In this document: piece after piece, positions 7,253 to 63,274 of the stretch | How the letters are laid out: the number at the start of each line of letters is the position of its first letter | Position numbering within the stretch: position 1 is the first letter of the stretch | Assembly (NCBI GenBank): GCA_041750915.1 | Contig: JBGSYJ010000069.1 | Span: 4,946-68,945 of the forward strand | Source: Thermoanaerobaculia bacterium | GTDB lineage: Bacteria > Acidobacteriota > Thermoanaerobaculia > Gp7-AA8 | DNA length: 64,000 nucleotides | Direction of reading: 5' to 3' | Position numbers and translations under genes: made by a program | The notes under the pieces: generated by a model | Databases searched by the model: none | Told to the model about the DNA's origin: nothing | The model's input: only the letters and a program-made list of their open reading frames with translations

Positions 7253-7338
7253 TGTCATCCTGAGCGAAGCGAAGGATCCCCTCAGGACTCGCCTTTCGGC
7301 ATGCAATCAGGGGATCCTTCGCTTTGCTCAGGATGACA
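7253..7338. repeat. Type I palindromic element (GTCATCCTGAGCGAAGCGAAGGATCCCC hairpin), copy a
   Basis: Arms TGTCATCCTGAGCGAAGCGAAGGATCCCCT and AGGGGATCCTTCGCTTTGCTCAGGATGACA flank a 26-nt loop. Confidence 0.7.
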
Positions 7339-7424
7339 CCTTTCGTACCGTCTTCTATCCTGCGCTTCTGTCTTCCGGGTGGTAAAATAGCCTCGCCAGA
7401 CTTCATCCGGAGAGCCCCCCATCG

Positions 7425-10400
7425 ATGTCCTTCGTTCACCTCCACATGCATACGCAGTATTCGCTGCTCGACGGCGCGAATCGTCCTGAAGATCTCGCCG
7501 CAAGAGTCGCGGAGATGAAGATGCCGGCGTGCGCGATCACTGACCACGGCAATATGTTCGGGGCGATCGACTTCTACAACGCGATGATGGAGAAGAAGGT
7601 CAAGCCAATCATCGGCTGTGAGATGTACATGGCGCTCGGCTCACGGTTCGACAAGGCCGGCGTGGAAAATCAGGATGCCGACGCCGGATCGAACAATCAC
7701 CTGATCGTTCTTGCAACGAATGACGCTGGCTACAGGAACCTCGTCAAGCTGGTTAGCGCTGGATATACCGAGGGGTTCTATTACAAGCCGCGCATCGACA
7801 GGGAACTGCTCAAAGAGCATTCCGAGGGGCTGATCTGCCTGTCATCCTGCCTGAAGGGCGAGGTCTCTCAGGCTCTCGCTGGAGGGAACTTCACGAAGGC
7901 GCTCGATGCTGCCCGCGCGTACAAGGAGATCCTCGGCCCCGACAACTTCTTTCTCGAGATCCAGGACCACGGAATTCCGGATCAGGTGAAGATCATCCCG
8001 CTGATGGCTCAGATTGCCGAGCAGGCAGGTTTGCGGATGGTTGCGACGAACGACTCGCACTATCTCGACAAGACGGACTCCTTTGCCCACGAAGTCCTGC
8101 TGGCAATCGGCACGGGCAAGACGCTCGACGACGATCGCCGGATGAAGTTTTACTCGGATGACTTCTACGTGAAGTCGCCTCAGGAGATGTCGAAGATTTT
8201 CGCGGCGTATCCTGAGGCGGTGGCGAACACGCTCCGGATTGCGGAGCGGGTGGATCTGAAGATTGAGCCGCAGAGTTACCACCTGCCGAACTTCCCCGTG
8301 CCGAAGGGGAGCGATCCGACGACGTACTTCGAAAAGGTAGCCCGCGAAGGCCTCGAGATGCGTCTCGCGGCGATGGCGCATCTGTTCGAGGCGAAACGAA
8401 AAAAACACGAGCGTCAGGAGTACATCGATCGCCTCGAAAGGGAGATCGGCATCATCCGGAGCATGGGCTTTCCTGGCTACTTCCTCGTGGTATGGGATTT
8501 CATCAAATTCGCCAGGGATCACGGGATTCCCGTAGGTCCGGGCCGAGGGTCTGCGGCTGGTTCACTCGTAGCGTACGCGATGAGGATCACGGACGTCGAT
8601 CCGCTGGACTACGACCTCCTGTTCGAGAGGTTTCTCAATCCCGACCGTATCTCGATGCCCGACATCGACATCGACTTCTGCATGAACAATCGCGGGAGGG
8701 TGATCGAGTACGTCCGCGACAAGTACGGAGCGGAGAACGTGGCGCAGATCATCACGTTCGGAACGATGGCCGCCCGTTCCGTGGTTCGGGACGTCGGACG
8801 CGTGCTCGGGATGCCGTTCGGTTTCGTTGACAAGGTGGCCAAGGCCATTCCCTCGGGTCCGGGCGTCATGCTGGCCGATGCAAAAAAAGACTCTCCACTC
8901 CTGGTCGAGGCGATCCGCAGCGACAAGGAAGTCGAAAAGATGATCGATATCGCGCTCCGCCTCGAAGGGCTGACCCGCCACGCGGGGGTTCACGCCGCGG
9001 GCGTCGTCATCACACCTGAGCCCGTTGACCAGTACGTTCCGCTCTACCGCACGAACAAGGACGAAATCGTCACCCAGTACGACATGCGCATCGTCGAGAA
9101 GATGGGGCTTCTCAAGATGGATTTTCTCGGGCTGCGCACGCTCACCGTGATCGACGATGCAATCAAGTCGATCCTCGCACAGGAAGGCGTGAAGCTCGAG
9201 ATCGAGAAGCTGGAGCTCGACGACCCTGAGGTCTACCGTCTATTTCAGGAGGGCCGCACAAAAGGCGTGTTCCAGTTCGAATCGGGAGGCATGGTCGATC
9301 TGCTTCGCAAGGCCCGTCCTACGAAGTTCGAAGATCTGGCGGCGCTTAATGCTCTCTATCGTCCGGGCGCGCTCGATGCGGGCATGGTCGACGAGTATGT
9401 CCGCCGGAAGAACGGACAGTCGAAAGCCAGATATCTCGTTCCTGTCATGCAACCGATTCTGGAGGAGACGTACGGGATCGTCGTCTACCAGGAGCAGGTC
9501 ATGCAGATCGCGCAGGGAGTTGCGAACTATTCGCTTGCACAGGCAGACCTTCTTCGCAAAGCGATGGGAAAGAAGGACAAAGCGATCATGGAGAAGGAGC
9601 GCGTCAGCTTCGTCTCCGGCGCGCTGGACAACGGGTACACACGCGAGAAGGCTGATGCGATCTTCGACTACATCGAGCCCTTCGCCCGCTACGGCTTCAA
9701 CAAGTCGCACTCTGTCGCGTACGCGCTGCTTGCCTACCAGACGGCGTGGCTGAAGGTTCATTATCCGCGTCACTTCATGGCCGCCGTGCTGACGTCCGAG
9801 ATGGACAAGACCGAGAATGTCGTCAAGTTCATCAACGAGACCTCGCAGATGGGGATCCGACTGCTCCCTCCGGACATCAACGAGTCGAATTTCTCGTTCA
9901 CAGTCGTCGGGTCGAATCTCCGGTTCGGACTTGGCGCAGTGAAGGGAGTCGGAGGAAGTGCGATCGAGTCCATCCTCTTTGCGAGGCGAACGGTCGGCCG
10001 CTTCACCGGCTTGTTCGAATTCTGTGAACAGGTCGATCTCCGCGCCTGCAACAAAAAGGTAATCGAGGCGCTGATCAAGTCGGGCTCTTTCGACTCCTTC
10101 CGCCTCACGCGCAAGGCGCTCTTCGAACAGCTGGAGCGGACTGCGGAAAGCGCGATGAAGGCGAAAGAGGAAAAGGAAAGAGGTCAGAGCACACTGTTCG
10201 GAGGCGCGGGCGCAGGCATCATCACGGCACCACGTTCCCTTGCCGCCGCGACAGATTCCGACGAATGGCTCGAGGATGAAAAGCTCGCCTTCGAAAAGGA
10301 AACGCTGGGCTTCTACATCACCGGACATCCTCTCAACAAGTTCGAAGGGGACCTCGAGATTTTCGCGACCGCAAATACGGACACTCTCAAGCGTTTCGTC

Positions 10401-11384
10401 GACCAGACGGTGACGATCGGAGGCATCGTTGGCCAGCTCAAGAAGTCGAAGATCAAGAAGGGGCCAAACGAAGGCAAGCTGATGGCAAAGTTCATCCTCG
10501 ACGACCAATTCGGAAGCGTTGAGGTCGTCGTGTTCAGCGATCTCTTTCAGAAGCATGCGAAATGGCTCGACAACGGTGTGCCGATACTTCTGACTGCCAG
10601 CGTCAAAGACACAGGCGGTGTTCCGGGCGGCCGCAGCGCCGCGCTCGCGCAGGCCGAACAGCAGGCCCGGCAGATCGACGACGAGTACGGCGGACATCCG
10701 GAGGACGATTTCGTCGTTGCCGATCGTCCCTCTCGTTCGGCCACTGACGCGCCGCAGATTTCCTATTACGAAGTCGGCGACGACGAGAATGAAAAGACGG
10801 AAGCTGAGCTCGAGCGGGAGCGGATCGGAACGGAGGTCGACCGATTCAACCTCAGCCTCTTTGGAGGCGCGCCCGCGCAGGAACCCGATGATGATCGGGA
10901 TGACAATGGTGGTGCCGGCGTGCGGACGGATGTCAGTTTGCACAGTCGCGAGGAGGCCGAGGAAGCGCGTGCTGCGATTGCAGAGGAGACCGAGTCTCTG
11001 ATAGCGCCCTCCGAGGCTGACAGCGCCGTCTACGAGCCCGCGCAGATTCTCCACGAAGCGCCGATCACCCCGGAGTTGAATGCCCTTGATCTGGTGCCGC
11101 TCGACGGCATCCGGGAGAAAAAGGTGAAGACGATTGCTCTCGAGATGTCATACACGACGGTGAGCGATTCTTCTCTCGCGAAGCTGCGCGAGATCTTCGA
11201 GAGCCATGCCGGCGAGGTTCCCGTGCTCGTGCGGCTCACGAATGTTCCACCGGAGCTGGCGAAGGAAGCAGGTTCCGATGGCCACGTGCAGCTCAAGCTG
11301 AACCATCACTTCCGAATTCAGCCCGGACAGCCCTTCACCGCCGCGGTGAACGAGCTCGACGCGCGGCTGCAGTATTTGTTCTAG
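7425..11384 (+). CDS. dnaE: DNA polymerase III alpha subunit, with a long acidic C-terminal extension
   Basis: PHP domain ([18 protein letters not shown]), polymerase core ([24 protein letters not shown], NRPG) and OB fold. The 1319 aa are about 150 aa longer than E. coli DnaE. Confidence 0.95.
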   Translation: [1319 protein letters not shown]

Positions 11385-16438: not shown

Positions 16439-16483
16439 GGACACCTCGCAGAAACGAAACGGTAACGTCCGGGGAGGATACAA

Positions 16484-18996: not shown

Positions 18997-19211
18997 CCGA
19001 GCGTCAATGACGAAACAGGATCAGGGTCGACGCAAATTGAGGAGTCATCCTGAGAGGTTGTGAATGAAACGCGGAGTGTCATCCCGACGCTGCTAATGAA
19101 CCTCTCGAATGTGAGCGGCCTGCGGGCCGCCCCTACGAGAGAACACACATCGAGCTTGTTCATCTGCTTCATTGGCGCGCCGCCATTCACGCGCTCGGGC
19201 TGACACAATGA

Positions 19212-27990: not shown

Positions 27991-28122
27991 TGCCCTCTCC
28001 TCCCGACACGCTTCGCAGGCTGCGTGAACTGTGGGAAAGTGTACTCTCAGCCGGCGCCGATTCGAAATCGCCCGCCATCGCCGCGCCGGAATGGCACATG
28101 GCATGACCGTAAGGCACGAGGT

Positions 28123-28209
28123 GTCATCCTGAGCGAAGCGAAGGATCCCCCGAGCCTTGCACCATACAGCCAGTAGTAAGGGGATCCTTCGCTGCGCTCA
28201 GGATGACAC
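28123..28209. repeat. Type I palindromic element, copy b
   Basis: GTGTCATCCTGAGCGAAGCGAAGGATCCCCC...GGGGATCCTTCGCTGCGCTCAGGATGACAC. Confidence 0.7.
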
Positions 28210-38186: not shown

Positions 38187-38216
38187 CGTCATCCTTCGCT
38201 TCGCTCAGGATGACAC
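38187..38216. repeat. Half copy of the type I element (right arm only)
   Basis: GTCATCC-TTCGCTTCGCTCAGGATGACAC. Confidence 0.4.
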
Positions 38217-38289: not shown

Positions 38290-38470
38290 GCCAATCGGGC
38301 AAATGTCATCCCGAGCGGGTGGGTGTGTGGGCAAGCGAGGGATCTCCGGCGATGGTACATAGTTGCCTACTGCCGCCGTCACTCTTTCCCTTAATGAATC
38401 TCGTATGTACCATCGCCGGAGATCCCTCGCCCCTCGCACCCACCCGACCAGGCTCGGGATGACACTTGGT
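38290..38470. repeat. MITE-like palindromic element, type II, copy B
   Basis: GTCATCCCGAGCGGGTGGGTGTGTGGGCAAGCGAGGGATCTCCGGCGATGGTACATAG ... TATGTACCATCGCCGGAGATCCCTCGCCCCTCGCACCCACCCGACCAGGCTCGGGATGAC. Confidence 0.6.
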
Positions 38471-38535
38471 TCAATTTATCGCCACAATGGAGTTCGCCAT
38501 TCATCCGCTCGGGATGACAGCGCCCTGTCACATCT

Positions 38536-44307: not shown

Positions 44308-44326
44308 TGTGATCGAATCGAGGGAG

Positions 44327-44355
44327 GGGATCCTTCGCTTCGCTCAGGATGACAC
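44327..44355. repeat. Half copy of the type I element
   Basis: GGGGATCCTTCGCTTCGCTCAGGATGACAC. Confidence 0.4.
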
Positions 44356-45925: not shown

Positions 45926-46009
45926 GCGCTTGGTTCATTTCCCGCGATACGGGTGGTTCGCCATTCTCAAGCTCGGGATGACACTGGTCGCATCAATGAC
46001 ATGGTGCGC

Positions 46010-46297: not shown

Positions 46298-46440
46298 ACT
46301 CACTCCTCGGGTGTGGATTGTTTCGCAGTGAGGGAAGAATCACAAGACGTGGGGACATTGACAGGTAGCCCGTCCGGTACGCGTTCAGTGTGACGGTGAA
46401 TCTGGGTCACAGAGGATTCCATTGGTTTAAGCTGCGACGG

Positions 46441-46528
46441 TGTCATCCTGAGCGAAGCGAAGGATCCCCTGATTTCTTGCGACAGGCGAGTACTGAGGGG
46501 ATCCTTCGCTTCGCTCAGGATGACACTC
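46441..46528. repeat. Type I palindromic element, copy e
   Basis: Full inverted arms. A direct repeat TAAGCTGC occurs on both flanks (46428-46435 and 46541-46548), which may be a target-site duplication. Confidence 0.7.
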
Positions 46529-47666: not shown

Positions 47667-47757
47667 AAGTGTCATCCTGAGCGTAGCGAAGGATCCCCAT
47701 ACTATTGGCTGGATCGCAGGGCTTCAGGGGATCCTTCGCTGCGCTCAGGATGACACC
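47667..47757. repeat. Type I palindromic element, copy f
   Basis: Arm, loop and the left flank GCGCAGGAGCAAGTGTCATCC are shared with copy h. Confidence 0.7.
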
Positions 47758-49810: not shown

Positions 49811-49820
49811 GACGTCGACG

Positions 49821-51579: not shown

Positions 51580-51710
51580 GAGCCTGTCCTCAGAAATTTC
51601 TCAACGGCATTTCATAGAGCCCTCAGGACTCCGGGCCGGAGACGAACTACCTTGTTTGTCGAGCGGTAGGTGGATTGTACCGCACGATGAGCGAGGAAAA
51701 GGAGCGACCC

Positions 51711-52784: not shown

Positions 52785-52880
52785 GGGGGAAGTACCTGAA
52801 CGGAGATCTGTCGGATTCGTCATCCCGAGCAAGCTCCCACCCGCACGACCAGGCTGCTAATGAACCCTACCGGCGAATGA

Positions 52881-52968
52881 GTGTCATCCTGTGCGCAGCG
52901 AAGGATCCCACTCCGCGAGGCGGTAAGGCAGGTCTTCAGGGGATCCTTCGCTGCGCTCAGGATGACAC
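52881..52968. repeat. Type I palindromic element, copy g
   Basis: GTGTCATCCTGTGCGCAGCGAAGGATCCC...GGGGATCCTTCGCTGCGCTCAGGATGACAC. Further GTCATCCCGAGC-type relics follow, up to about 53040. Confidence 0.7.
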
Positions 52969-53124
52969 CCGCTGTTCATCGCTCGCTTCAATGGCCCTGC
53001 CATCCACCTACTCGGGATGACCCCTCGTTCATCGCCAATGTGACCTGCTCGGGTGGCGGCTCCTGTCTACTGTCTTCTGTGTGCTGTCTACTCTCCCGCC
53101 GTCTGTGTAATCATTCCAGAAAGC

Positions 53125-54513: not shown

Positions 54514-54543
54514 GCAGTTCTGAGTACTGCCAGGGCGGCGGTG

Positions 54544-54999
54544 CCCCTCTCCCGGCGGGAGAGGGGTCAGGGGTGAGGGAGCTTCTTCAGCGCCTCAACC
54601 AAACGCTTGATCCGATCGAGCACGATTTCCGGATTTACGAGCAGCTCTTCATTCTCGATTCGAGTCAGGGTGTAACCGCGATCCTGAAGGTACTGCGTGC
54701 GATGCGCGTCGGACGATTGAACGGACAGATCAAAGTGACCGTCGCCGTCGAGCTCGATGATGAGCCTAACTTCTTCGCAGCAGAAATCAACGATGTAATG
54801 TCCGATCTCGAATTGTCTCTGAAACTTCAGATTCATAAAGCGGCGTCCGCGGAGTGCGGACCACATCGCGCGTTCTGCCGGGGTCTGTCGCCTTCGAAGT
54901 TCGCGGGCTCTTTGGACGAGCTTGTGAGATTCGTGATGCATGAGCGTGATCGTACCTCGGGTTCCCTCACCCCTGACCCCTCTCCCGCCGGGAGAGGGG
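54544..54999. mobile_element. DUF559 cassette 2: full-length DUF559 gene bounded by perfect 36-bp terminal inverted repeats
   Basis: The left end CCCCTCTCCCGGCGGGAGAGGGGTCAGGGGTGAGGG (54544-54579) is the exact reverse complement of the right end CCCTCACCCCTGACCCCTCTCCCGCCGGGAGAGGGG (54964-54999). The gene's stop codon and last three codons lie inside the left repeat. Confidence 0.6.
54567..54941 (-). CDS. DUF559 endonuclease-domain protein (Vsr-like/PD-(D/E)xK)
   Basis: ARELRRRQTPAERAMWSALRGRRFMNLKFQRQFEIGHYIVDFCCEEVRLIIELDGDGH is a full-length DUF559. Confidence 0.8.
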   Translation of the reverse strand: MHHESHKLVQRARELRRRQTPAERAMWSALRGRRFMNLKFQRQFEIGHYIVDFCCEEVRLIIELDGDGHFDLSVQSSDAHRTQYLQDRGYTLTRIENEELLVNPEIVLDRIKRLVEALKKLPHP

Positions 55000-55073
55000 A
55001 ACCGCCACCCTGCTGTGCACCGTGATAGGATTCAAACCTTCAATCTCCAAATGCTGAGAGGCCATCACGCGAC

Positions 55074-58000
55074 ATGATCGGCACGATTCTCAATAACCGC
55101 TACGAGATCATCGGTGAGCTCGGTCGCGGTGGGATGGGTGTGGTTTACCGCGCCAGGGACCCTCTGCTCAACCGCGAGGTTGCGATCAAGCTCGTTCCCC
55201 CGATGCTGCTCAATCCGCAGTCAGAGGAGCGATTCAACCGCGAGGCGCAGCTCGTCGCACAGATGGACCATCCGTCCATCGTTCCGATCTTCGACATCGG
55301 ACAGCACGATGGCTCGATGTTCTTCCTGATGCCTGTGGTGAAGGGCGACAACCTGCGGGCGTTTCTCCGCGAAAAGCCTCGGACTCTCGGATCCATCATC
55401 GACATTGCCATCCAGGCGGCAGAGGGTCTCGAATACAGCCACGCGAGAGGAGTGATTCACCGCGACATCAAGCCGGAGAACATCATGGTCTCCGAGGAAG
55501 AGGGCGCGCTGCGGGTTCGCATTATGGATTTCGGCCTCGCGAAAGCGGCGTCGGACCAGAGGCTGACGCGAACGGGCACGCTCGTTGGAACCGTCTCGTA
55601 TTTCAGCCCCGAGCAGGTCAAGGCCGAGGAGGTCGACAACCGCTCCGATATCTACTCTCTCGGGACGGTGATCTATGAAGCGATCGCAGGAGAGCCTCCG
55701 TTCACGGGCGAGATGCAGTCGGTGCTTTACCGCGCCGTCCACGAGAACCCGCGTTCGCTGATCGATCGCGGCGCGGAGATCTCGCAATCGCTCGAAGACG
55801 TGATCATGCGTACGCTCGCTAAAGAGCCGTCCAGACGGTATGCAACGGCGGGCGATCTCGTCGAGGCGCTCAGACGGTACAGGTTGACCCTCCGCGACGA
55901 TGACATGGTCAAGGCCGTAGGAATGTCCTCGGTCATGACGGCACAGATGGTCCGTCCGTCGTCGGCTCCGTTCATCGGAAGAGAGAAAGAGATTGCCGAG
56001 CTGCAGCGCCGCCTGAACGCAGCCGTCGACGGAGAATGCCAGTTCGCAGTGATCGCAGGAGAGCCGGGCATCGGCAAGACACGGCTCGTCGAAGAGATCG
56101 AGAGTCTCGCCCGCGCGCGGAAGATCACAGTTCTTCACGGGCGTTTCATGGAGCAGGATCGCACCTTCGCGTATCAGGGCTTCGGCGAGGCCATTCAGGA
56201 GTTCTTCCGTTCGCCGGACACCGGTGGATCGGGAGCGCGGCCGGACGTATCGGATCTCGCACCCGATCTGATCGCACTGTTTCCGGTTCTCAGTGAGATC
56301 AGCGAACTGCGCAAAACATCGAGCGGCGATCAGCGGCAGGAACCGGCCGAATCGCGAAAAGCCGAAGACCGCACGTGGGTGTTCGAGCTGCTCGCGCGGA
56401 CGATGGTGCGCATCGGAGGCGGGAAAGCGCTCGTTCTCGTGTTTGAGAATCTCCACTCGGCCGAGCTCTCGCTCGATGCGCTTCAGTACATCGTGCGCCG
56501 CCTCGCTCCGACGCCGACGCTCATCATCGGAACGTTTCGTCAGACAGAGATCGACAAGCGCCACCCGCTGGTCAAGATGCTCGACACATTCGCTGACGAT
56601 CCGAGATTCTCGTCGACTTACCTCGGTCCTCTGACTCCGTCGGAACACCGCAGCTTCATTCAGACGATGGTCGGTGGCGCTTCTCTCGGAGCAGGGCTGG
56701 CCGAGCGACTCTATGAAGCGACCGAAGCGAATCCCTTCTTCACGCGCGAGCTCGTCCGCTCTCTGATCGACTCCGGCGGAATTGCGAGGGCGGAGACGGG
56801 AGAGTGGACGCTGTCGGGGGAAATGGCGATTTCGTCCGACGCGCTGCCTGCAACGATTCAGCAGACGGTCGAGAAGCGGATCGAGAGGCTGCCGGAAGAG
56901 ATGCGGGACGTGCTCTCCACGGCTTCTGTCATGGGCCGCAGCTTCGACTTTCGCGACCTCGAGTCACTCGCAGACTCGAAGGGAGGCCTCGACGACATCG
57001 TGGATCGCCTCGTCTACGAGGGATTGATCGAAGAGGAGCGCGAGTCGCGGGGAGACAGGCTCGCGTTCACGAGCGGCATCGTCCGGGATGTTCTCTACAG
57101 CGCGCTGTCACGCCGGAAGAGAAAGTCTCTGCATCGCAGGTATGCCGAGCTGCTCGAAAAGCGGAACAGCGGAAGACTGGATCGAGTCTATCCGCAGCTC
57201 GTTCACCACTACTCCGAGGGGGATGTTCCGGACAAGACGGTCGAGTACGGAATGATTCTCGCGCGCAAGTCTCTTGACGCATTCAGTTCCGAGGAGGCGG
57301 TGCAGACGCTTCGTACGGTCGTCGACTTCCTTGATGATGACGAGTGGTCGCCTCCGCCGGGCACCGTAGGCGAGGCGCGCATGCTGCTCGCTTCGGCGCT
57401 TCGGCAGCAGGGACAAATCGACGCAGCGTTGCGGGAAGCTGAGGCAGCTGTCCAGAGCTTCGAAAAGGACAAAGATGCGGATCGCGCGTCGGCTGCGATG
57501 CTGCTCGCTGCGGAAGCCGCATGGCAGGGCCGCCGTGTCGAAGAAACAAGGAACTGGCTCGATCGCGGAGTTGCGGCAGCGAGAGGTGCGACAGCAGGAA
57601 ATGTTCTCGCCGACCTGCTGTCCCTTGCAGCCACGGTCGCAAACCTGCGGGGCGAGTACAGCAGGGCGAAGGAGCTTCTCGATGAGCTCGAACGAATCCG
57701 TCCGGCAATCTCCCTGGAGCAGCAGATCGACATCCCGGTCGGTGGGCGGTTGATGGTGAGTCTCGGAAATCCCGCGCCCGCGAAAGAGCCGGCAGCGATC
57801 GAGCTTCTGGAAGAGTCCGAAATTCTCGGCCTCGCTTTCGAAAGGCTCGTGACGACTGATGATCGGGGCCACCTGGTCGCCTCTCTCGGCGAAAGCTGGG
57901 ATGTGATCGACGATGGCCGGGCGATGAAACTGCGGTTGCGCGAGGGAGTGCGCTTTCACGACGGTTCCCCGCTTACCGCCGAGGCGGTGAGGGATTCAAT

Positions 58001-60713
58001 CGAAGGGGCTGTGAAGTCTCAGTTGCGCGAGACCGCAGCCTGGTCGGTGATTGAAGGATTCGAGGAGTTCCGGGAGGGAGCTTCGAGCCACATCTCCGGA
58101 ATTCTCATTCAGGGAGAGGGTGACCTCGAGATCCGGCTGAGAGAACCCCTGCCGATTTATCCCGCGCTCCTGACGGATACGAAGACCGGAATCTCACACG
58201 TAACAGTCGACGAAAAGGGAGTCCGTTCGGTGGCCGGTACGGGTGCGTTCCGCATCGTCCAGCACGATCAGGACCGCATCGTGATAGAGAAGAACGCGGA
58301 CTACTGGATGCCCGGGAGGCCGCGCCTCGACGCGATCGAGTTTCGCGTGGAGAGAAACGCCTCGTCGCGCGCCGCGCAGATGCGCTCCGGCGAGATCGAT
58401 GTCGGGCGCGAGCTCCTGACCAACGACCTCGACGAGCTTCTTCGCGACCCCCGTTTCCGCAACGGTCTCCAGGAGGTTCCGAACAAGATCACCTATTTCG
58501 CGGTGTTCAATCACTCGACGCCTGCGGGAGGAAATGAAAGGCTTCGCCGCGCGCTGTGCGGAGTTCTTCCCGTGCACGATCTCGTCTGGGGCTCACTGGG
58601 ACGCCTCGCCCAGCCGACGACGACACTGATTCCACCGGGGATCCTGGGCCACGATCCGGGCCGCCGCCGGCATCCGATGTCGCGGGACCAGGCGGCCGAA
58701 CTGCTCACCGCCAGTGGACTCGAACTGCCCCTCACGCTGCGGGCGGCAGTCCAGCCCCTCTACCAGGACCGGTATCGCGCTTTGCTCGACGCCATTGTCG
58801 AGATCTGGTCGAGCCTTGGAGTGACGATCGAGATCGTGACGCCTGATCTCGAGTCCTTCATGGCCTCATACCGCGATGACGAAGACATCGACATCCGGAT
58901 CATGCGTTGGGCTGCCGACTATGACGATCCGGACGATTTCTCGTACGGTTTGTTCCATTCCGGAACCGGGCTCGTATCGCGTTACTTCTCGACGCCGGCG
59001 ATCGACCAATTGACCGAAGAGGGGAGGACGGAACGACGGCCTGCAGCCCGAGAGGCGATCTATCGACGGTTCGAGCAGGCGATCTCCGAGTCCGGATCGG
59101 TTCTCCCGTTTTTCCACGAAATCGATTACCGACTGGCCAACCCCTACGTGCGGGGGCTGCAGATCGTCAGCACGTCTCCATTCGTGAATTACGCCGAGCT
59201 CGGAAAATCGTCGCACGCGCCCGTCGTGGCAACGAGTCGCGCGGGCGGAATGATCGTTGTACCGATCGCCGGGGCGATGCACGAGATCGAGCCAACTCGC
59301 GTGACGACTGTCGAAATGAGCGAGACGGTGCCCTGCTTTTACGAGACTTTGACGAAGGTGGGCGAGGGCGCCCGCGTCATCCCGTGGCTTGCCAGCTCGG
59401 TAACACCCGAGGACGGAGGAATGCGTTACCGGATACGACTCCGTGAGGACGTTCGTTTCCATGACGGCCGGCGTATGAGTGCGCGCGATGTCCGTTACAC
59501 GTTCGAGCGTCTGTTCACTCTTTCAGGGAGCGTTGCCGGATGGTTCTTCACGGCGATTAAGGGCGCGAAGGAACTGATGGCAGGACGGACCCGAGAGCTC
59601 GAGGGTCTGCAAATCGTTTCCTCACACGAGCTCGTCATGGAGCTGGAGCACCCGCTCTCGTTTTTTCCCACGCTGCTCTCGCACCTGAACTCGTCGATCG
59701 TTCCAGAAGGGACTGGGGAAATCGGTACGTCGTGGAAGACTGGCGTAGCGGGCACAGGACCATTTCGGCTGGTGGCTCTCGATCCGTCCGGGAGACTGGA
59801 GCTGGAGAAGAATCCGTTTTACTGGCGTGATGGATACCCTAAGAGCGATGCTCTCGTTTTCCAGTACGGGTTGGGAAGCGACGAGATCAGACATCGATTT
59901 CAGGCAGGGGAGCTATCCATCGCCAGCGACCTCAGGCCGGCGGACGTCGAACTGTTCCGGCACGACCCGGAGTTCGCTCCGGGGTACCGGGAGACCCCTC
60001 GTCTTTCAATTTACTTCGCCGCATTCAACCGGAACCGAGGCCCACTCGCTGACCCTGAACTGCGCCGCAGTCTGGTGAGTATGATCGATGTCCCCGGAAT
60101 CGTGGGGCGCCAGCTGGGTCGCCTGGCGATTCCTGCGCATGGAATCATTCCGCCCGGGCTGCTCGGATTCAATACAGCGCAGCCCGGTCGCGCTGCTATG
60201 TCTCGTTCACGCGGAGGAGAGAATCGCGACATCGAGTTGAAAACCGTCGTGCATCCGATCTTCTTCGAACAGTACGCAGGAGTCGGGAAAGAACTGCTCG
60301 CAGCGTTCGCGGAGAAGGGGATTCGAATACAGATTACGGCGAAAACGATGAGCGAATATACAGACGCCCGTATCGTCGCTGAAGCGGATCTCAAGATAGG
60401 ACGCTGGTTCGCGGACTATCCCGACGCTGATACGTTTACACACGGTCTGCTTCATCGAAAAGCCGGTTACATCGGCGATTCCTGCGGATCTGTGGAACTC
60501 GATCGCCTCACAGAGCGGGGCAGAGAGGAATCCGATCCCGGACGACGTCATGCAATCTATCAGGAAATCGAGCAGATGGTTGTGCGCGATGCGCTCATGC
60601 TGCCGCTGTTTCACGAGCAGATCTACCGGCTGGCGCGCCCCGAAGTCGAAGGGCTCGCTTTGAATCTCTCCACGCCCGAGGTGCAGTACGATGAGTTGCG
60701 AGTACGACGTTGA
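55074..60713 (+). CDS. Giant signalling protein: Ser/Thr protein kinase + STAND/AAA_16 ATPase + TPR + two SBP_bac_5 (peptide-binding-protein-like) domains
   Basis: Kinase: GRGGMGVVYRA, VAIK, HRDIKPEN, DFGLA. NTPase: GEPGIGKTRL (Walker A). SBP5 number 1: WDVIDDGRAMKLRLREGVRFHDGSPLTAEAV...GTGAFRIV...NADYW. SBP5 number 2: MRYRIRLREDVRFHDGRRMSARDV...GTGPFRLV...NPFYW. No transmembrane segment seen. Confidence 0.85.
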   Translation: MIGTILNNRYEIIGELGRGGMGVVYRARDPLLNREVAIKLVPPMLLNPQSEERFNREAQLVAQMDHPSIVPIFDIGQHDGSMFFLMPVVKGDNLRAFLREKPRTLGSIIDIAIQAAEGLEYSHARGVIHRDIKPENIMVSEEEGALRVRIMDFGLAKAASDQRLTRTGTLVGTVSYFSPEQVKAEEVDNRSDIYSLGTVIYEAIAGEPPFTGEMQSVLYRAVHENPRSLIDRGAEISQSLEDVIMRTLAKEPSRRYATAGDLVEALRRYRLTLRDDDMVKAVGMSSVMTAQMVRPSSAPFIGREKEIAELQRRLNAAVDGECQFAVIAGEPGIGKTRLVEEIESLARARKITVLHGRFMEQDRTFAYQGFGEAIQEFFRSPDTGGSGARPDVSDLAPDLIALFPVLSEISELRKTSSGDQRQEPAESRKAEDRTWVFELLARTMVRIGGGKALVLVFENLHSAELSLDALQYIVRRLAPTPTLIIGTFRQTEIDKRHPLVKMLDTFADDPRFSSTYLGPLTPSEHRSFIQTMVGGASLGAGLAERLYEATEANPFFTRELVRSLIDSGGIARAETGEWTLSGEMAISSDALPATIQQTVEKRIERLPEEMRDVLSTASVMGRSFDFRDLESLADSKGGLDDIVDRLVYEGLIEEERESRGDRLAFTSGIVRDVLYSALSRRKRKSLHRRYAELLEKRNSGRLDRVYPQLVHHYSEGDVPDKTVEYGMILARKSLDAFSSEEAVQTLRTVVDFLDDDEWSPPPGTVGEARMLLASALRQQGQIDAALREAEAAVQSFEKDKDADRASAAMLLAAEAAWQGRRVEETRNWLDRGVAAARGATAGNVLADLLSLAATVANLRGEYSRAKELLDELERIRPAISLEQQIDIPVGGRLMVSLGNPAPAKEPAAIELLEESEILGLAFERLVTTDDRGHLVASLGESWDVIDDGRAMKLRLREGVRFHDGSPLTAEAVRDSIEGAVKSQLRETAAWSVIEGFEEFREGASSHISGILIQGEGDLEIRLREPLPIYPALLTDTKTGISHVTVDEKGVRSVAGTGAFRIVQHDQDRIVIEKNADYWMPGRPRLDAIEFRVERNASSRAAQMRSGEIDVGRELLTNDLDELLRDPRFRNGLQEVPNKITYFAVFNHSTPAGGNERLRRALCGVLPVHDLVWGSLGRLAQPTTTLIPPGILGHDPGRRRHPMSRDQAAELLTASGLELPLTLRAAVQPLYQDRYRALLDAIVEIWSSLGVTIEIVTPDLESFMASYRDDEDIDIRIMRWAADYDDPDDFSYGLFHSGTGLVSRYFSTPAIDQLTEEGRTERRPAAREAIYRRFEQAISESGSVLPFFHEIDYRLANPYVRGLQIVSTSPFVNYAELGKSSHAPVVATSRAGGMIVVPIAGAMHEIEPTRVTTVEMSETVPCFYETLTKVGEGARVIPWLASSVTPEDGGMRYRIRLREDVRFHDGRRMSARDVRYTFERLFTLSGSVAGWFFTAIKGAKELMAGRTRELEGLQIVSSHELVMELEHPLSFFPTLLSHLNSSIVPEGTGEIGTSWKTGVAGTGPFRLVALDPSGRLELEKNPFYWRDGYPKSDALVFQYGLGSDEIRHRFQAGELSIASDLRPADVELFRHDPEFAPGYRETPRLSIYFAAFNRNRGPLADPELRRSLVSMIDVPGIVGRQLGRLAIPAHGIIPPGLLGFNTAQPGRAAMSRSRGGENRDIELKTVVHPIFFEQYAGVGKELLAAFAEKGIRIQITAKTMSEYTDARIVAEADLKIGRWFADYPDADTFTHGLLHRKAGYIGDSCGSVELDRLTERGREESDPGRRHAIYQEIEQMVVRDALMLPLFHEQIYRLARPEVEGLALNLSTPEVQYDELRVRR

Positions 60714-60714
60714 G

Positions 60715-60786
60715 GGGAGTTGTGAGTTCTGAGTTGTGAGTTCTGAGTGGAACGCGGCGCTCCACTCAGAACTCAGAACTCGTAGG
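60715..60786. repeat. Heptad-repeat hairpin (H5): (GAGTTGT/GAGTTCT)x4 ... (CAGAACT)x2 with a 14-bp stem
   Basis: GAGTTCTGAGTGGA-ACGCGGCGC-TCCACTCAGAACTC begins two nucleotides after the kinase stop. Confidence 0.6.
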
Positions 60787-60788
60787 TC

Positions 60789-61424
60789 ATGGCTGAAAAG
60801 CACAAAATCCTGATTGGTGGGCCGAGGAAGGCTTCGTTGACGGTGGTGCTCGCGCACGGAGCGGGAGCGCCGATGGACTCGCCATTCATGAACGAAGTGG
60901 CTGAAGGCCTTGGCGCGAACGGACTGCGAGTCGCGCGCTTCGAGTTTCCTTACATGGCGTCTCGGCGCAATGGTGGGAAGAAGCCTCCGGATCGCGAGAC
61001 GCGTCTGCGGGAAGTCTGGCTCGAAGTCATTGAGGAGTTGGGCGACAAGGACCGGCTGTTTATCGGCGGCAAGTCGATGGGGGGCCGGATGGCGAGCCTC
61101 GTGGCGGACGAGGCGGGAGTTCGAGGGCTCGTCTGCTTCGGGTATCCGTTCCATGCGCCGGGCAAACCGCCGGGGGATCGCATCAGTCATCTGAAGTCTC
61201 TTCGCACTCCCGCGCTGATCATTCAGGGAACTCGCGATTCGTTCGGCAAGCCGGACGACGTGCTCACGTACGAGCTCGCACCGTCGATACGCGTCGCGTG
61301 GATCGAGGATGGTGATCACTCGCTGAAGCCGCGGGCAAAGTCGGGTCGGACCGAGGGGCAGAATATCGACGAGGCGGTGGTGATGGCGGCGGAATTCGTG
61401 AAGAAGATCGTCGGGGGTCGGTAA
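60789..61424 (+). CDS. Alpha/beta-hydrolase-fold protein (COG3571-type predicted hydrolase)
   Basis: VVLAHGAGAPMDSPFM...GGKSMGGRMAS...CFGYPFH...DHSLKP. Confidence 0.75.
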   Translation: MAEKHKILIGGPRKASLTVVLAHGAGAPMDSPFMNEVAEGLGANGLRVARFEFPYMASRRNGGKKPPDRETRLREVWLEVIEELGDKDRLFIGGKSMGGRMASLVADEAGVRGLVCFGYPFHAPGKPPGDRISHLKSLRTPALIIQGTRDSFGKPDDVLTYELAPSIRVAWIEDGDHSLKPRAKSGRTEGQNIDEAVVMAAEFVKKIVGGR

Positions 61425-61564
61425 TCATTCTGGAGCTTCCATGAAGGCCGCAAAGAAGCTTCAGGCAAGTCTGCAGGATTTGTCAACCCGCGCTTGCTCG
61501 GGATGACAGATCCTTGAGACCTGCTTAAGACTTCGTCGCACATGCATTCACTTGTGAGCTCTTC

Positions 61565-61984
61565 ATGATAGAGATCAACGAAACGCTCTCCATTCCTGAC
61601 GATGAGATCGTGCTCACGGCGTCGCGCAGCAGCGGTCCGGGCGGTCAGAACGTCAACAAGGTGAACAGCCGGATCACCCTCTGGTTCGATATCGGGAGGT
61701 CGACGGTCCTGGAGGAAGGCCAGAAGCAGAAACTGCTCGCAGCGCTTCGCACACGCGTGACGGGCGAGGGTGTCCTGCACGTGTCGAGTCAGAAGCACCG
61801 CGCGCAGGGAGCCAACCGTGAGGCGGCGATTGCGCGATTTGCGGAGCTGCTCAGAGAAGCGCTTTCCGAGCAGAAGCCTCGGAAGGCTACCCGCGCATCG
61901 CGAGCCGCGAAGGCGCGAAGGATCGACGAAAAGAAGCAGCGCGGCGTTATCAAGAAGCTACGGGGCTCTCCTCCGCGGGAGTGA
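61565..61984 (+). CDS. arfB: Alternative ribosome-rescue factor B (peptidyl-tRNA hydrolase ArfB/YaeJ)
   Basis: SSGPGGQNVNKVNSRI carries the GGQ motif; basic C-terminal tail; 139 aa. Confidence 0.88.
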   Translation: MIEINETLSIPDDEIVLTASRSSGPGGQNVNKVNSRITLWFDIGRSTVLEEGQKQKLLAALRTRVTGEGVLHVSSQKHRAQGANREAAIARFAELLREALSEQKPRKATRASRAAKARRIDEKKQRGVIKKLRGSPPRE

Positions 61985-62037
61985 ACCTTCTCTCGCAAAT
62001 CTTGCGACGGGGTCCTACAATATGCCGCATCAGCGGC

Positions 62038-62928
62038 ATGATAGAGAGTATTTCGAGGGGCTGGGTGACGGCGTTCTGGTTCGCAGTCGGAATCGGCTGC
62101 GCGGTCGCGCTCACCCCACCGATATTCGACCTGACGATCCTCCTGGGGTTCGAGCTCGATTTCCTTCGCACTTTCCGTCGGATCCTGCTGCTTGCGGCCG
62201 TAATGGTCCTCGCGTTCCGGCTACTGCCATGGAAAGACGGGAATCTGCAGAGCTACGGACTCGGCTTCTCTCGGGAGAATGTATCGCCCACGATGGGTGC
62301 CTATGTCATCACCGTGGCGCTCGTCGCCACACTGATCCAGATCGAACTGGCGGCCGGCTGGGTGAAGTGGCAACTTCGTCCCGATTACATCCTCCGAGCC
62401 GTGCGATATGGTCTTACCGGTCTTTTGATCGCATACATCGAGGAGCTTTTCTTTCGCGGATGGATGCTCCGGCGCATCGGCAAAGCGAAGGGGTTCTTTG
62501 TGGCACTCGTATTCACGAACCTCGTGTACGCCCTCGCTCACGGATTCAAACCGCGTCATGTGACCGTCGATGTCGCTGATACGTGGCAGGGTGCGTTGAT
62601 GGCTTTAGGCCTTTGGACGCGACACCTCCTCAGCCCGACCTTCTGGCCCTCGATCGTCGGACTGTTTCTCTTCGGGCTTCTGCTCTCAGCGCTGTACCTG
62701 CGCACGGGCTCTCTCTGGTCGTCGGTAGGAGTGCATGCCGCGGCAGTGCTGATGCTTCATGGTGTCGTTCCCTCGCTACGAGGGACTTCACCTCCGGAGT
62801 GGGCGGGAACCAAGGTGATGTACGACGGTGTGCCGGGCTGGATCCTTCTTGGAACGGCGACGCTGCTGATCTGGGGGTTGCAGAAGCAGCAGCGGGAAGA
62901 ATCGGGAAGCGCGATTCCCGTCGATTGA
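62038..62928 (+). CDS. CPBP-family intramembrane metalloprotease (CAAX protease/Abi)
   Basis: EELFFRGWMLRRI (EExxxR), FTNLVYALAHG (FxxxH) and a later H in the VHAAAV helix. I chose the start at MIESISRG; the upstream GTG would overlap arfB. Confidence 0.75.
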   Translation: MIESISRGWVTAFWFAVGIGCAVALTPPIFDLTILLGFELDFLRTFRRILLLAAVMVLAFRLLPWKDGNLQSYGLGFSRENVSPTMGAYVITVALVATLIQIELAAGWVKWQLRPDYILRAVRYGLTGLLIAYIEELFFRGWMLRRIGKAKGFFVALVFTNLVYALAHGFKPRHVTVDVADTWQGALMALGLWTRHLLSPTFWPSIVGLFLFGLLLSALYLRTGSLWSSVGVHAAAVLMLHGVVPSLRGTSPPEWAGTKVMYDGVPGWILLGTATLLIWGLQKQQREESGSAIPVD

Positions 62929-63096
62929 CTCCGCGATCAGAGATAGGCGATCAGCCGACCGCAGGTGATCACGCCGGTCCAGAGCAGGAGAGACGATCAG
63001 GATGACAAGTCCTTCAGATCTTCTGGTCTGGGCAGGGTTTCAAAGCATGCGTAGTGCCGCGTAACAGGGCGCGCGCAGGCGCGCCATACAGTTTAG

Positions 63097-63274
63097 CCCC
63101 GGGCTCTGCCCCAATGGCGTCAACTTAAGGTCCGCGCAGGAGCAAGTGTCATCCTGAGCGTAGCGAAGGATCTCCTTACTATTGGCTGTATCGCAAGGAT
63201 TGAGGGGATCCTTCGCTTCGCTCAGGATGACACGTTGTGCCTTAAGTTAACGCCATTGGGGCTCTGCCCGGGGG
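63097..63274. repeat. Composite palindrome: type I element (copy h, 63148-63236) nested between outer inverted arms of about 34 bp
   Basis: Outer arms CCCCGGGCTCTGCCCCAATGGCGTCAACTTAAGG and CCTTAAGTTAACGCCATTGGGGCTCTGCCCGGGGG; the inner arms are GTCATCCTGAGCGTAGCGAAGGATC...GGGGATCCTTCGCTTCGCTCAGGATGAC. Confidence 0.6.

What the first reader, a model, noticed from the sequence alone, without database searches (positions are those of the whole stretch)
7253..63236. Dense family of ~88-bp palindromic GTCATCCTGAGCGAAGCGAAGGATCCCC elements: 6 full and 2 half copies in 64 kb
Full copies lie at 7253-7338, 28123-28209, 46441-46528, 47667-47757, 52881-52968 and 63148-63236; half copies lie at 38187-38216 and 44327-44355. 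All are intergenic. Each has perfect or near-perfect ~28-bp inverted arms around a variable 25-35-nt loop. Copies f and h also share the loop and the left flank GCGCAGGAGCAAGTGTCATCC. Copy e has an 8-bp direct repeat TAAGCTGC on both sides, a candidate target-site duplication. Related GTCATCCCGAGC / CTCGGGATGAC(A) relics occur at 3715-3960, 18996-19212, 38250-38520, 45950-46010, 52820-53040, 61490-61520 and 62990-63030. This looks like an active or recently active MITE/REP superfamily sharing a GTCATCC terminus.
Basis: seen in the sequence. Interest (0 to 1): 0.55.

Follow-up and report, generated by a model that had tools for sequence, protein, structure and literature searches.

The report
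Hairpin repeats for a GIY-YIG nuclease
The dense ~88-bp palindromes are real and are pairs of a short DNA hairpin motif of a known kind (CGTC/TGTC-tagged REPs, also called Ssn-related motifs) that in other bacteria flanks the gene of a small nuclease cutting single-stranded DNA, so this is a new sequence family of a recently explained system rather than a new kind of element.

Summary
The window holds 14 arms of (G)TGTCATCCTGAGCGNAGCGAAGGATCCCC, as six tags-outward palindromes and two single arms, all intergenic, with 0 expected by chance.

The unit is the single ~27-nt arm, not the 88-bp palindrome. It consists of a YGTC tag, a covarying 5-bp stem that starts with AT, tandem G·A, a short GC stem with a GNA triloop, and a C-rich tail. 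The exact 26-mer occurs in genomes of more than ten phyla.

This architecture matches the CGTC/TGTC-tagged REP superfamily (Di Nocera 2013). Chenal et al. (2025) showed that such repeats (NTS/SRM) are recognised as ssDNA hairpins by Ssn, a single-domain GIY-YIG nuclease whose gene is flanked by the motif.

- Seven of 117 motif-selected loci carry such a gene, bracketed by or abutting these arms.
- Six of six independently chosen homologues are flanked on both sides by SRMs, five of them of this type.
- The published SRM search pattern does not match this family.
- The window holds no ssn gene, RAYT or transposase, and the copies have no target-site duplications or T-tracts.

Verdict: a new member of a known kind. 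How the copies spread, and what they do in this genome, remains inferred.

The parts
7253..7338 (.). Dimer a. Two tags-outward arms (TGTCATCCTGAGCGAAGCGAAGGATCCCC and its near-complement) with a 26-nt spacer. It lies between a hypothetical gene and dnaE.
28121..28209 (.). Dimer b, with a 29-nt spacer, lying between divergently called genes. The spacer is related to those of f and h in reverse orientation.
38187..38214 (-). Single arm c. The tag, stem and loop are intact, but the 3' tail has diverged (GGATGACG instead of GGATCCCC).
44326..44353 (-). Single arm d, a perfect 28-mer, lying between the M56-peptidase-like gene and an alpha/beta-hydrolase gene.
46440..46526 (.). Dimer e. Its arms extend to 41 nt, and its spacer is 82% identical to that of dimer a in reverse orientation.
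47669..47756 (.). Dimer f, between mscL and a convergent TPR/SnoaL gene. It is embedded in an imperfect outer palindrome (about 47640-47785) that it shares with h.
52881..52968 (.). Dimer g, nested inside a 203-bp element whose own ends are GTCATCCCGAG...CTCGGGATGAC (52819-53021).
63146..63233 (.). Dimer h, nested in the outer inverted repeat 63097-63130 / 63240-63273.
3713..3882 (.). A ~170-bp palindrome of a sister family. Each arm is TGTCATCCCGAGC, then a ~20-nt insert, then GCGAGGGATCTCC. It is the same tag/stem/tail module with a TCCC/GGGA stem and an enlarged loop.
38300..38468 (.). Second copy of the ~170-bp sister-family palindrome.
52819..53021 (.). Outer element around dimer g, ending in GTCATCCCGAG on each side. 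Its right part is related to the half-motifs at 19205, 38518 and 45982.
19044..19207 (.). Cluster of tag-plus-5'-stem half motifs (AGTCATCCTGAG, TGTCATCCCGA and, on the minus strand, TGTCAGCCCGAGC), joined to other short hairpins.
38508..38518 (-). Isolated 5' half (TGTCATCCCGAGC) fused to a GAATGGCG...CCATT hairpin.
45972..45982 (-). Isolated 5' half (TGTCATCCCGAGC) of the same sub-type as 38518.
61497..61507 (-). Isolated 5' half (TGTCATCCCGAGCAAGCG...).

Best explanation
The palindromes are tags-outward dimers of a short structured DNA repeat. The repeat belongs to the CGTC/TGTC-tagged REP superfamily, the same kind of element as the Neisseria NTS/dRS3 and the 'Ssn-related motifs' (SRM).

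Each arm, read on its own strand as single-stranded DNA, folds into a small hairpin. The parts are an unpaired YGTC tag, a 5-bp stem that starts with A-T and T-A, two tandem G·A mismatches, a 2-bp or longer GC stem closed by a GNA triloop, and then an obligatory C.

By analogy with the characterised members, this hairpin is bound by a cognate single-domain GIY-YIG nuclease (Ssn). That enzyme binds only the ssDNA form of the top strand and cuts a few nucleotides upstream of the tag. In other genomes the ssn gene sits between two such arms (SRM-ssn-SRM).

The window's 88-bp dimers look like gene-less miniature versions of that unit. They have been copied as whole units to many intergenic sites.

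Shown here:
- the repeat, its arm-level structure and its covariation;
- its cross-phylum distribution;
- its physical linkage to Ssn-like GIY-YIG genes in other genomes.

Inferred:
- that this genome encodes a matching Ssn;
- that Ssn binds and cuts these particular arms;
- that Ssn, or ssDNA processing around it, is what spreads the copies;
- that the biological effect is control of ssDNA, for example incoming transforming DNA, as in N. meningitidis.
For: 1. Arm structure.
- The outer stem covaries. Among variants other than the searched one, 18 of 27 are fully complementary, with five different stems (TTCT/AGAA, TTCC/GGAA, TCCC/GGGA, CCCT/AGGG, CGCT/AGCG).
- The inner stem varies in sequence and length but keeps C-GNA-G (GCGNAGC, ACGNAGT, GGCGAAGCC, ACCCCCGTAGGGGGT and others).
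- On 44 distinct arms, 6 of 7 pairs show double changes. There are 31 compensatory cells against 7.0 in shuffles (0/500), and 85.7% of cells are paired against 17-48% when the partners are slid.

2. The arm, not the long hairpin, is the constrained unit.
- Single arms are common elsewhere.
- In 28 tags-outward pairs, the triloop N matches in both arms 12 times against 8.5 expected if independent. In 11 of 28 pairs the two arms have different outer stems, each internally compensated.

3. Fit to the published CGTC-REP features (PMC3733652).
- Tag CGTC/TGTC/CCTC: the window is 14/14 TGTC; elsewhere T and C occur; CCTC occurs in L220.
- The stem begins with AT and the tail begins with CC.
- Tags-outward dimers predominate: 28 against 2 tags-inward and 6 tandem.
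- Copies are intergenic, with convergent contexts more frequent than divergent.

4. Linkage to Ssn-type genes.
- Seven of 117 loci chosen only by the motif, from five phyla, carry a ~100-aa GIY-YIG ORF (Pfam PF01541) bracketed by or abutting the arms. The stop codon often lies inside the downstream arm.
- None occurs in 0.87 Mb of DnaE-selected control loci.
Five of the six are of the GA...GNA...GA type.
- The Tyr-Tyr-Glu spacing of 11 and 58 residues equals that of the mutated Y6, Y17 and E64 of N. meningitidis SsnA (PMC11893778).

5. Published biochemistry agrees with the anatomy.
- Loop identity is dispensable and loops can be extended.
- The three bases upstream of the palindrome govern cutting.
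- The C just after the palindrome governs binding.

6. Whole-dimer copying. Spacers fall into subfamilies in either orientation: a~e 0.82, f~h 0.82, b~h 0.79.
Against: - The window holds no GIY-YIG gene, and the rest of the genome could not be read. The presence of a cognate Ssn in this organism is therefore untested.
- The published degenerate SRM pattern HGTCWYN(0-2)YYVSBRHN(0-5)WNVSBRGN(0-2)RNCYNB does not match these arms and finds 0 sites in the window.
- This family has a 3-nt loop and two G·A mismatches. The four described CGTC families have 8-9 perfect pairs and 4-5-nt loops.
- Assignment of the linked GIY-YIG proteins to the cd10448/Ssn clade could not be checked against CDD. NCBIfam has no specific model, and the nearest solved structure is a weak UPF0213 match.
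- No cleavage, binding or mobility was tested.
- Arms are 95% identical but spacers are much less so. That fits long-standing, selectively maintained copies as well as recent activity.
Confidence: 0.8

Rival explanations
1. They are REPINs in the strict sense: inverted doublets of REP sequences mobilised by a single-copy RAYT (Y1/HUH tyrosine transposase) encoded elsewhere in the genome.
For: - The anatomy resembles a REPIN: an inverted doublet of short imperfect palindromes, each with an unpaired 5' tetranucleotide, plus decayed singlets.
- Enterobacterial GTAG REPs even share a central AGCGNAGCG.
- The rest of the genome was not seen, so a RAYT cannot be excluded.
Against: - The tag is YGTC, not GTAG/GTGG.
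- Di Nocera et al. found no tyrosine transposase flanked by CGTC-type repeats.
- A Y1_Tnp search over all fetched loci and the window found one RAYT-like gene (L115). It is flanked by a different REP, ATGAGCGAGCGGGACGCTCGCGGTCCGG.
- The gene that is repeatedly bracketed by this motif is a GIY-YIG nuclease.
Confidence: 0.05
2. They are classical MITEs: deletion derivatives of an insertion sequence with a DDE transposase that recognises the ~28-bp terminal inverted repeats on double-stranded DNA and makes target-site duplications.
For: - The ends are TG...CA.
- There are several internal-sequence families with the same termini.
- Copies are nested in other repeats.
- An 8-bp word, TAAGCTGC, occurs on both sides of copy e.
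Against: - No copy has flanking direct repeats adjacent to its ends. The TAAGCTGC words lie 4 nt and about 19 nt from the ends.
- Single arms are frequent and internally structured, with compensatory changes. A dsDNA transposase site would not require that.
- All-against-all clustering of ORFs from 117 loci gave no recurring transposase next to the motif.
Confidence: 0.03
3. They act mainly at the RNA level as host-selected hairpins (terminators, mRNA 3'-end stabilisers or processing sites), with no dedicated enzyme. The similarity across genomes would then reflect convergence on a very stable hairpin.
For: - The dimers fold into very stable RNA hairpins, -62 to -76 kcal/mol with z-scores of -11 to -14.
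- They favour tandem and convergent gene junctions.
- In some AT-rich genomes (L086, L094) the dimer is followed by a T-run, like a terminator.
Against: - The window copies have no T-tract, and none is flagged by the terminator scan.
- Two copies lie between divergently called genes.
- Single arms show no orientation bias relative to transcription: 19 same, 17 opposite.
- The conserved features (tag, tandem G·A, GNA triloop, trailing C) exist on one strand only and are unnecessary for a plain hairpin.
- Exact 26-mers shared across more than ten phyla, together with linkage to one gene family, are not expected from convergence.
- The characterised Ssn enzyme does not bind RNA.
- A secondary effect on transcripts is not excluded.
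Confidence: 0.1

Closest known systems
Ssn-related motifs (SRM) / Neisseria transformation sequence (NTS) with the Ssn GIY-YIG ssDNA nucleases (Chenal et al., Nat Commun 2025, PMC11893778)
   Same: - A short directional hairpin repeat with an HGTC tag upstream of the palindrome and a C just after it.
- The loop is tolerant of change and extension.
- Copies are numerous and mostly intergenic.
- The gene for a ~95-120-aa single-domain GIY-YIG protein is flanked on both sides by the motif, tags outward.
- The catalytic Tyr-Tyr-Glu spacing is the same.
   Different: - The arm is not matched by the published degenerate SRM pattern.
- The stem carries two conserved tandem G·A mismatches and a GNA triloop, instead of a perfect ATTCCCGC/GCGGGAAT stem with a 4-nt loop.
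- The hosts here are mainly Acidobacteriota, Verrucomicrobiota, Chloroflexota, Gemmatimonadota and others, rather than Neisseria, Rickettsia, Wolbachia and sphingomonads.
- No ssn gene lies in this window, and no biochemistry exists for this sequence family.
CGTC-tagged REP superfamily, families CGTC-1 to CGTC-4, including Rickettsia RPE-4/6 and Neisseria dRS3 (Di Nocera, De Gregorio and Rocco, BMC Genomics 2013, PMC3733652)
   Same: - An unpaired CGTC/TGTC/CCTC tag.
- A stem whose first two pairs are A-T and T-A.
- A short C-rich tail.
- Mainly tags-outward dimers with 20-100-bp spacers.
- Intergenic location between co-directional or convergent genes.
- Presence in several phyla.
- No adjacent transposase.
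   Different: - The described families have 8-9 perfect pairs, 4-5-nt loops and a CCA tail. This one has 7 Watson-Crick pairs plus 2 G·A, a 3-nt loop and a CCC/CCT tail.
- Acidobacteria were not among the five phyla listed.
REPIN-RAYT systems (Bertels and Rainey 2011; Nunvar et al. 2010, PMC2817692)
   Same: - Inverted doublets of short REP hairpins, each with a 5' unpaired tetranucleotide.
- Singlets that look like decayed doublets.
- A single-copy nuclease gene flanked by the repeats.
- Presumed ssDNA recognition.
   Different: - The tag is YGTC, not GTAG.
- The linked enzyme is a GIY-YIG nuclease, not a Y1/HUH transposase.
- The only RAYT seen, in L115, has its own, different REP.

Membership tests
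CGTC/TGTC-tagged REP superfamily (PMC3733652) | [quoted passage not shown] | tested here: met
   All 14 window arms are preceded by T, giving TGTC. Across genomes the tag is TGTC or CGTC in most arms, and CCTC in L220.
CGTC/TGTC-tagged REP superfamily (PMC3733652) | Stem of 8-9 bp whose first two pairs are A-T and T-A | tested here: inconclusive
   There are nine stacked positions, ATCCTGAGC/GCGAAGGAT, starting with AT. Two of them are conserved G·A mismatches, so only 7 are Watson-Crick pairs.
CGTC/TGTC-tagged REP superfamily (PMC3733652) | Loop of 4-5 nt | tested here: not met
   The loop is a 3-nt GNA with free N: A 76, C 57, G 32, T 21. Some members have longer inner stems or inserts.
CGTC/TGTC-tagged REP superfamily (PMC3733652) | Short unpaired 3' tail (consensus CCA) | tested here: inconclusive
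   The tail is CC followed by C or T in the window (GGATCCCC/T). CC is nearly invariant across genomes, and the third base is variable.
CGTC/TGTC-tagged REP superfamily (PMC3733652) | Mostly tags-outward dimers with spacers of 20-100 bp; intergenic; co-directional or convergent contexts favoured | tested here: met
   There are 28 tags-outward pairs against 2 inward and 6 tandem, with spacers mostly 20-45 nt. Contexts are 51 convergent, 69 tandem and 17 divergent.
SRM / Ssn system (PMC11893778) | Match to the published degenerate SRM search sequence HGTCWYN(0-2)YYVSBRHN(0-5)WNVSBRGN(0-2)RNCYNB | tested here: not met
   The regex gives 0 hits in the window and does not match the arm. The canonical NTS used as a control does match.
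SRM / Ssn system (PMC11893778) | Directional hairpin with a conserved GTC just upstream and a C just downstream of the palindrome; loop not sequence-critical | tested here: met
   GTC and the trailing C are conserved in the arms while the triloop N and inner-stem length vary freely. (In some searches these positions were fixed by the collecting pattern, so their invariance there is not independent.)
SRM / Ssn system (PMC11893778) | The motif flanks, on both sides, genes for single-domain GIY-YIG proteins of about 95-120 aa | tested here: met
   This holds in other genomes: 7 of 117 motif-selected loci and 6 of 6 independent homologues. There is no such gene in the window itself.
SRM / Ssn system (PMC11893778) | The linked protein belongs to the cd10448 (Ssn) clade of the GIY-YIG superfamily | not testable with these tools
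   No CDD is available. Indirect evidence is the Pfam GIY-YIG domain as the only domain, a median length of 109 aa, and Tyr-Tyr-Glu spacing of 11/58 as in SsnA Y6/Y17/E64. There is only a weak match to solved UPF0213 structures.
SRM / Ssn system (PMC11893778) | A genome rich in the motif encodes a cognate Ssn; the enzyme binds ssDNA of the top strand only and cuts upstream | not testable with these tools
   Only 64 kb of this genome is available. The single matching public contig is a 2.1-kb Logan fragment.
REPIN / RAYT | GTAG-type head and a RAYT (Y1_Tnp) gene flanked by the same REP | tested here: not met
   The tag is YGTC. The one RAYT-like gene found, L115:7011-7583 (PF01797), is flanked by a different REP.
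MITE of a DDE-transposase IS | Target-site duplications, and a parent IS with the same terminal repeats | tested here: not met
   No adjacent direct repeats occur at any of the six copies. No recurring transposase lies next to the motif in 117 loci.
Intrinsic terminator | GC-rich hairpin followed by a T-tract at transcript 3' ends | tested here: not met
   No T-runs follow the window copies. None of the 22 terminator-like sites in 44001-64000 coincides with a copy.
Any Rfam RNA family | Score at or above a family's gathering threshold | tested here: not met
   There are 0 matches in the window. At the E-value threshold only generic matches to microRNA-precursor hairpins appear.

The most novel reading that the evidence does not exclude
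The 88-bp dimers may be gene-less miniature derivatives of an arm-ssn-arm unit that a GIY-YIG ssDNA nuclease mobilises or maintains. That would make them a GIY-YIG-driven counterpart of IS/MITE or RAYT/REPIN systems.

This GA/GNA-type arm escapes the published SRM search pattern and is shared as an exact 26-mer by more than ten phyla. It would then define a distinct, horizontally spreading Ssn specificity class.
Probability: 0.3. Interest if true: 0.7.

Novelty: new member of a known kind. Interest (0 to 1): 0.35.

Why it matters
- It ties a very dense repeat of a poorly sampled, probably Acidobacteriota-like genome (an inference from motif resemblance only; its DnaE is at most 54% identical to the best metagenome matches) to the recently characterised Ssn/SRM system.
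- It shows that the published SRM search pattern misses a whole cross-phylum sequence family with a different hairpin design (tandem G·A plus a GNA triloop). Counts of SRM-bearing genomes are therefore probably underestimates.
- Each arm-flanked GIY-YIG gene is a candidate site-specific ssDNA nuclease with a new specificity, which is the property that makes Ssn enzymes attractive as tools.
- Practically, these arms break short-read assemblies: the matching Logan contig ends inside two arms.
- For biology, the open question of how CGTC-type repeats multiply remains open. This family, with whole-dimer paralogues and nested copies, is a reasonable place to test it.

Tried and rejected
- **Rfam:** nothing at gathering thresholds, and only generic microRNA-hairpin matches at the E-value threshold.
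- **Hammerhead-like reading** of CUGA...GAA: rejected by inspection, because the core does not fit. This is my own reasoning, with no tool result.
- **Literature search for the literal sequence:** one irrelevant hit.
- **Empty-site test via orthologous loci failed.**
  - One window protein is not on record, and another is found only on a 2.1-kb Logan contig identical to the window.
  - A metagenome scan with the TPR/SnoaL protein found no relative.
  - A scan with DnaE found only relatives at or below 54% identity.
  - Those 0.87 Mb served instead as a motif-free control: 0 arms.
- **Plasmid collection, distant BLAST with copy e:** no match. This is a weak test for a 26-nt core.
- **Viral contigs:** only 15 stretches, not followed up.
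- **RAYT hypothesis:** rejected for this motif.
- **First clustering of neighbouring ORFs:** I initially misread the 7-locus cluster that overlaps the motif as a translation of the repeat. It is in fact the GIY-YIG family.
- **Target-site duplications:** none.
- **NCBIfam:** no specific model for the GIY-YIG proteins.
- **PDB by sequence:** only weak UPF0213 matches.
- **Search for a GIY-YIG gene or remnant in the window:** only trivial matches to arm-encoded peptides.
- **Within-genome 'empty site' for dimer g:** comparing its outer element with the related element at 19078-19207 did not give a clean pre-insertion site.

Full report
**1. The observation**

A search for GTCATCCTGAGCGAAGCGAAGGATCCCC with up to three mismatches finds 14 arms. 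None is expected in dinucleotide shuffles.
- The arms form six palindromes at 7253-7338, 28121-28209, 46440-46526, 47669-47756, 52881-52968 and 63146-63233.
- Two single minus-strand arms lie at 38187-38214 and 44326-44353.
- Arms are 29-41 nt and 90-97% complementary. Spacers are 26-30 nt, or 5 nt where the arms of copy e extend.
- All copies lie between GC3-based gene calls.

The flanking genes are ordinary chromosomal genes, with no transposase: dnaE, mscL, a methyltransferase, a SpoIIE-type phosphatase, a BlaR1-like peptidase and others.

Copies f and h share the spacer and flanks, and both sit in a longer outer palindrome.

The shorter word GTCATCC[CT]GAG occurs 22 times, always intergenic. 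Beyond the main family it marks:
- two ~170-bp palindromes of a sister family;
- an outer element that encloses copy g;
- several isolated 5' halves.

**2. The unit is the arm**

The hosts include Acidobacteriota, Verrucomicrobiota, Chloroflexota, Gemmatimonadota, Alpha-, Beta- and Gammaproteobacteria, Myxococcota, Bacteroidota (isolates of Hymenobacter), Bacillota, Patescibacteria, Chlorobiales/Ignavibacteria, Fibrobacter and others. Some have AT-rich flanks, so this is not mis-binning of one lineage.

- Conservation stops sharply at the ends of a ~28-nt block.
- Arms occur singly as often as in pairs.
- The motif is not universal. It is absent from 0.87 Mb of DnaE-selected metagenome loci and rare in viral contigs.

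**3. Structure of the arm**

Each arm contains its own hairpin: ATCCT / AGGAT around GA-GC-GNA-GC-GA.
- Among variants other than the one searched for, 18 of 27 have fully complementary outer stems, of five kinds.
- The inner stem varies in sequence and length while keeping a C-GNA-G triloop.
- On 44 distinct arms collected with all paired positions left free, 6 of 7 pairs show changes on both sides. There are 31 compensatory cells against 7.0 in shuffles (0 of 500 reach this). Pairing is 85.7%, against 17-48% when partners are slid.
- The tandem G·A and the G and A of the triloop are conserved, and the middle base is free. They were fixed by the collecting pattern, so their invariance there is not independent evidence.

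Between the two arms of a dimer, the free base agrees only about as often as chance (12 of 28 against 8.5). In 11 of 28 dimers the arms carry different, internally compensated stems. Selection therefore acts on the small hairpin of each arm, not on the long inter-arm hairpin, although the latter is very stable as predicted.

The well-formed hairpin exists on one strand only. Single arms show no orientation bias relative to transcription: 19 same, 17 opposite, on crude gene calls. This points to single-stranded DNA rather than RNA as the relevant form.

**4. What is known**

Di Nocera et al. (PMC3733652) sorted REPs into GTAG- and CGTC-tagged superfamilies. According to their text, CGTC elements have:
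[quoted passage not shown] - 4-5-nt loops and a CCA tail;
- mostly head-outward dimers, in five phyla;
- no dedicated transposase.

Their table of intragenic repeats shows the familiar peptides (VIPAKAGI ... IPAFAGMT), which confirm the tags-outward dimer geometry.

Chenal et al. (PMC11893778) then showed the following:
- The Neisseria member (NTS, CGTCATTCCCGCGMAVGCGGGAATCYRG) is bound, as ssDNA only and on one strand only, by SsnA.
- SsnA is a 94-aa single-domain GIY-YIG nuclease that cuts a few nucleotides upstream.
- ssn genes are typically flanked by such 'Ssn-related motifs' (SRM-ssn-SRM).
- Loop identity is dispensable.
- The bases just upstream of the palindrome govern cutting, and the C just after it governs binding.
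- In N. meningitidis the system restricts transforming ssDNA.

**5. Linking this family to Ssn**

Among the 117 motif-selected loci, seven from five phyla carry a ~100-120-aa ORF with only a GIY-YIG domain, directly bracketed by or abutting the arms. The hosts are Patescibacteria, Verrucomicrobiota (two loci), Chloroflexota, Acidobacteriaceae (two loci) and Myxococcales. In four of them the downstream arm encodes the C-terminus ...DPSLRSG and the stop codon. No such gene occurs in the DnaE-selected controls.

In the reverse direction, a homology search with one of these proteins returned more than 1000 single-domain relatives. Six independent ones, chosen only for long contigs, are all flanked on both sides by tags-outward SRMs.
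- Five of the six have the GA...GNA...GA design, with tags CGTC, TGTC or CCTC and some with enlarged loops.
- One has the classical CGTC-1 design.

The spacing of the two GIY-YIG tyrosines and the catalytic glutamate (11 and 58 residues) equals that of the SsnA residues Y6, Y17 and E64.

The published degenerate SRM pattern, however, does not match this arm and finds nothing in the window. This family would therefore have been missed by that census.

**6. The window itself**

- No GIY-YIG gene, RAYT or other transposase is present.
- The dimers have no target-site duplications and no T-tracts. They are not picked up as terminator-like sites.
- Arms are 95% identical.
- Spacers fall into subfamilies in either orientation: a~e 0.82, f~h 0.82, b~h 0.79. 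Whole dimers have therefore been copied as units.
- Copies g, f and h are nested in other palindromic repeats.
- No close relative of the organism was available for empty-site tests. The best DnaE match is at most 54% identical, and the only matching public contig is a 2.1-kb fragment whose ends lie inside two arms.

**7. Interpretation**

The most likely reading (confidence about 0.8) is that these are dimers of an SRM / CGTC-type REP family whose partner is an Ssn-type GIY-YIG ssDNA nuclease.

Still inferred:
- that this genome encodes such an enzyme;
- that the enzyme cuts upstream of these arms;
- what this does for the cell, whether restriction of incoming ssDNA as in Neisseria or something else;
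- how the copies multiply.

Rivals are each disfavoured by tested features (see the membership table):
- a RAYT-driven REPIN system;
- a DDE-transposase MITE;
- purely RNA-level hairpins.

A secondary effect of such stable hairpins on transcripts is not excluded.

**8. Novelty and score**

The kind is known: CGTC-tagged REPs since 2013, and their Ssn partner since 2025.

New here:
- a distinct sequence and structure family (tandem G·A plus a GNA triloop);
- its breadth across phyla;
- its failure to match the published search pattern;
- its density in this genome, at one arm per 4.6 kb.

I rate it a new member of a known kind, with interest 0.35. The most novel reading not excluded is that the gene-less dimers are mobilised by the GIY-YIG nuclease, as a GIY-YIG analogue of MITE/IS or REPIN/RAYT systems.

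Noticed in passing
window 29341-29535 (+) and 49606-49810 (-): A second repeat family: two ~195-bp copies about 85% identical. Each carries two CCCCTCTCCCCG-N6-CGGGGAGAGGGG hairpins near its ends, and each overlaps the starts of called ORFs.
   Followed up: partly
window 63298-63368: A 33-nt-arm palindrome whose arms read TGTAGCG(A/C)CCGC...GCGGCCGC, a GTAG-headed REP-like doublet with heads facing inward. It lies 65 bp from dimer h.
   Followed up: no
window 16476-16542, 24192-24270, 60731-60781; also L022 and L036: Hairpins built from short tandem repeats (GGATGAA, GAAGAGT/GTGAA, GAGTTCT) sit at gene ends. Very similar simple-repeat hairpins directly flank arm dimers in Hymenobacter piscis (L022) and in a Thermoanaerobaculia MAG (L036).
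   Followed up: no
L002, L032, L055, L076, L092, L095 (upstream of the complete arm); L219:1895-1960: Tandem arrays of the tag plus the 5' half of the stem (GTCATCCTGAGC followed by 7-10 unrelated bases, period 19-27 nt) precede a complete arm in several phyla. The repeated part ends exactly where the triloop would begin.
   Followed up: partly
L118 (= window 44331-46465): The only public contig identical to the window, from Logan assembly SRR28170462, begins inside arm d and ends inside the left arm of dimer e. These repeats therefore break short-read assemblies.
   Followed up: yes
L026, L028, L085, L106, L214, L215; P0001-P0003: The downstream arm supplies the last residues (...DPSLRSG) and the TGA stop of the GIY-YIG gene. 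The repeat is thus part of the coding sequence of its presumed partner enzyme.
   Followed up: partly
L115:6940-7630: A RAYT-like Y1 transposase gene (PF01797) in a Rhizobium MAG is flanked by its own inverted REP, ATGAGCGAGCGGGACGCTCGCGGTCCGG. It lies 1.7 kb from a zero-spacer dimer of the arm studied here, so two repeat systems sit side by side.
   Followed up: partly
L072:3131-3265: Three arms lie in direct tandem with a 54-nt period in a gammaproteobacterial MAG. This arrangement is rare elsewhere.
   Followed up: no
window 55074-60713: A 1879-aa ORF combines a Ser/Thr protein kinase, an AAA_16 ATPase, a weak, sub-threshold match to a MalT-like TPR region, and two matched stretches of solute-binding family 5 (SBP_bac_5).
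   Followed up: no
window 7425-11384 and L119-L198: The window's DnaE is at most 54% identical to the best 80 of about 600 metagenome relatives. The source organism therefore has no close relative in that collection.
   Followed up: partly
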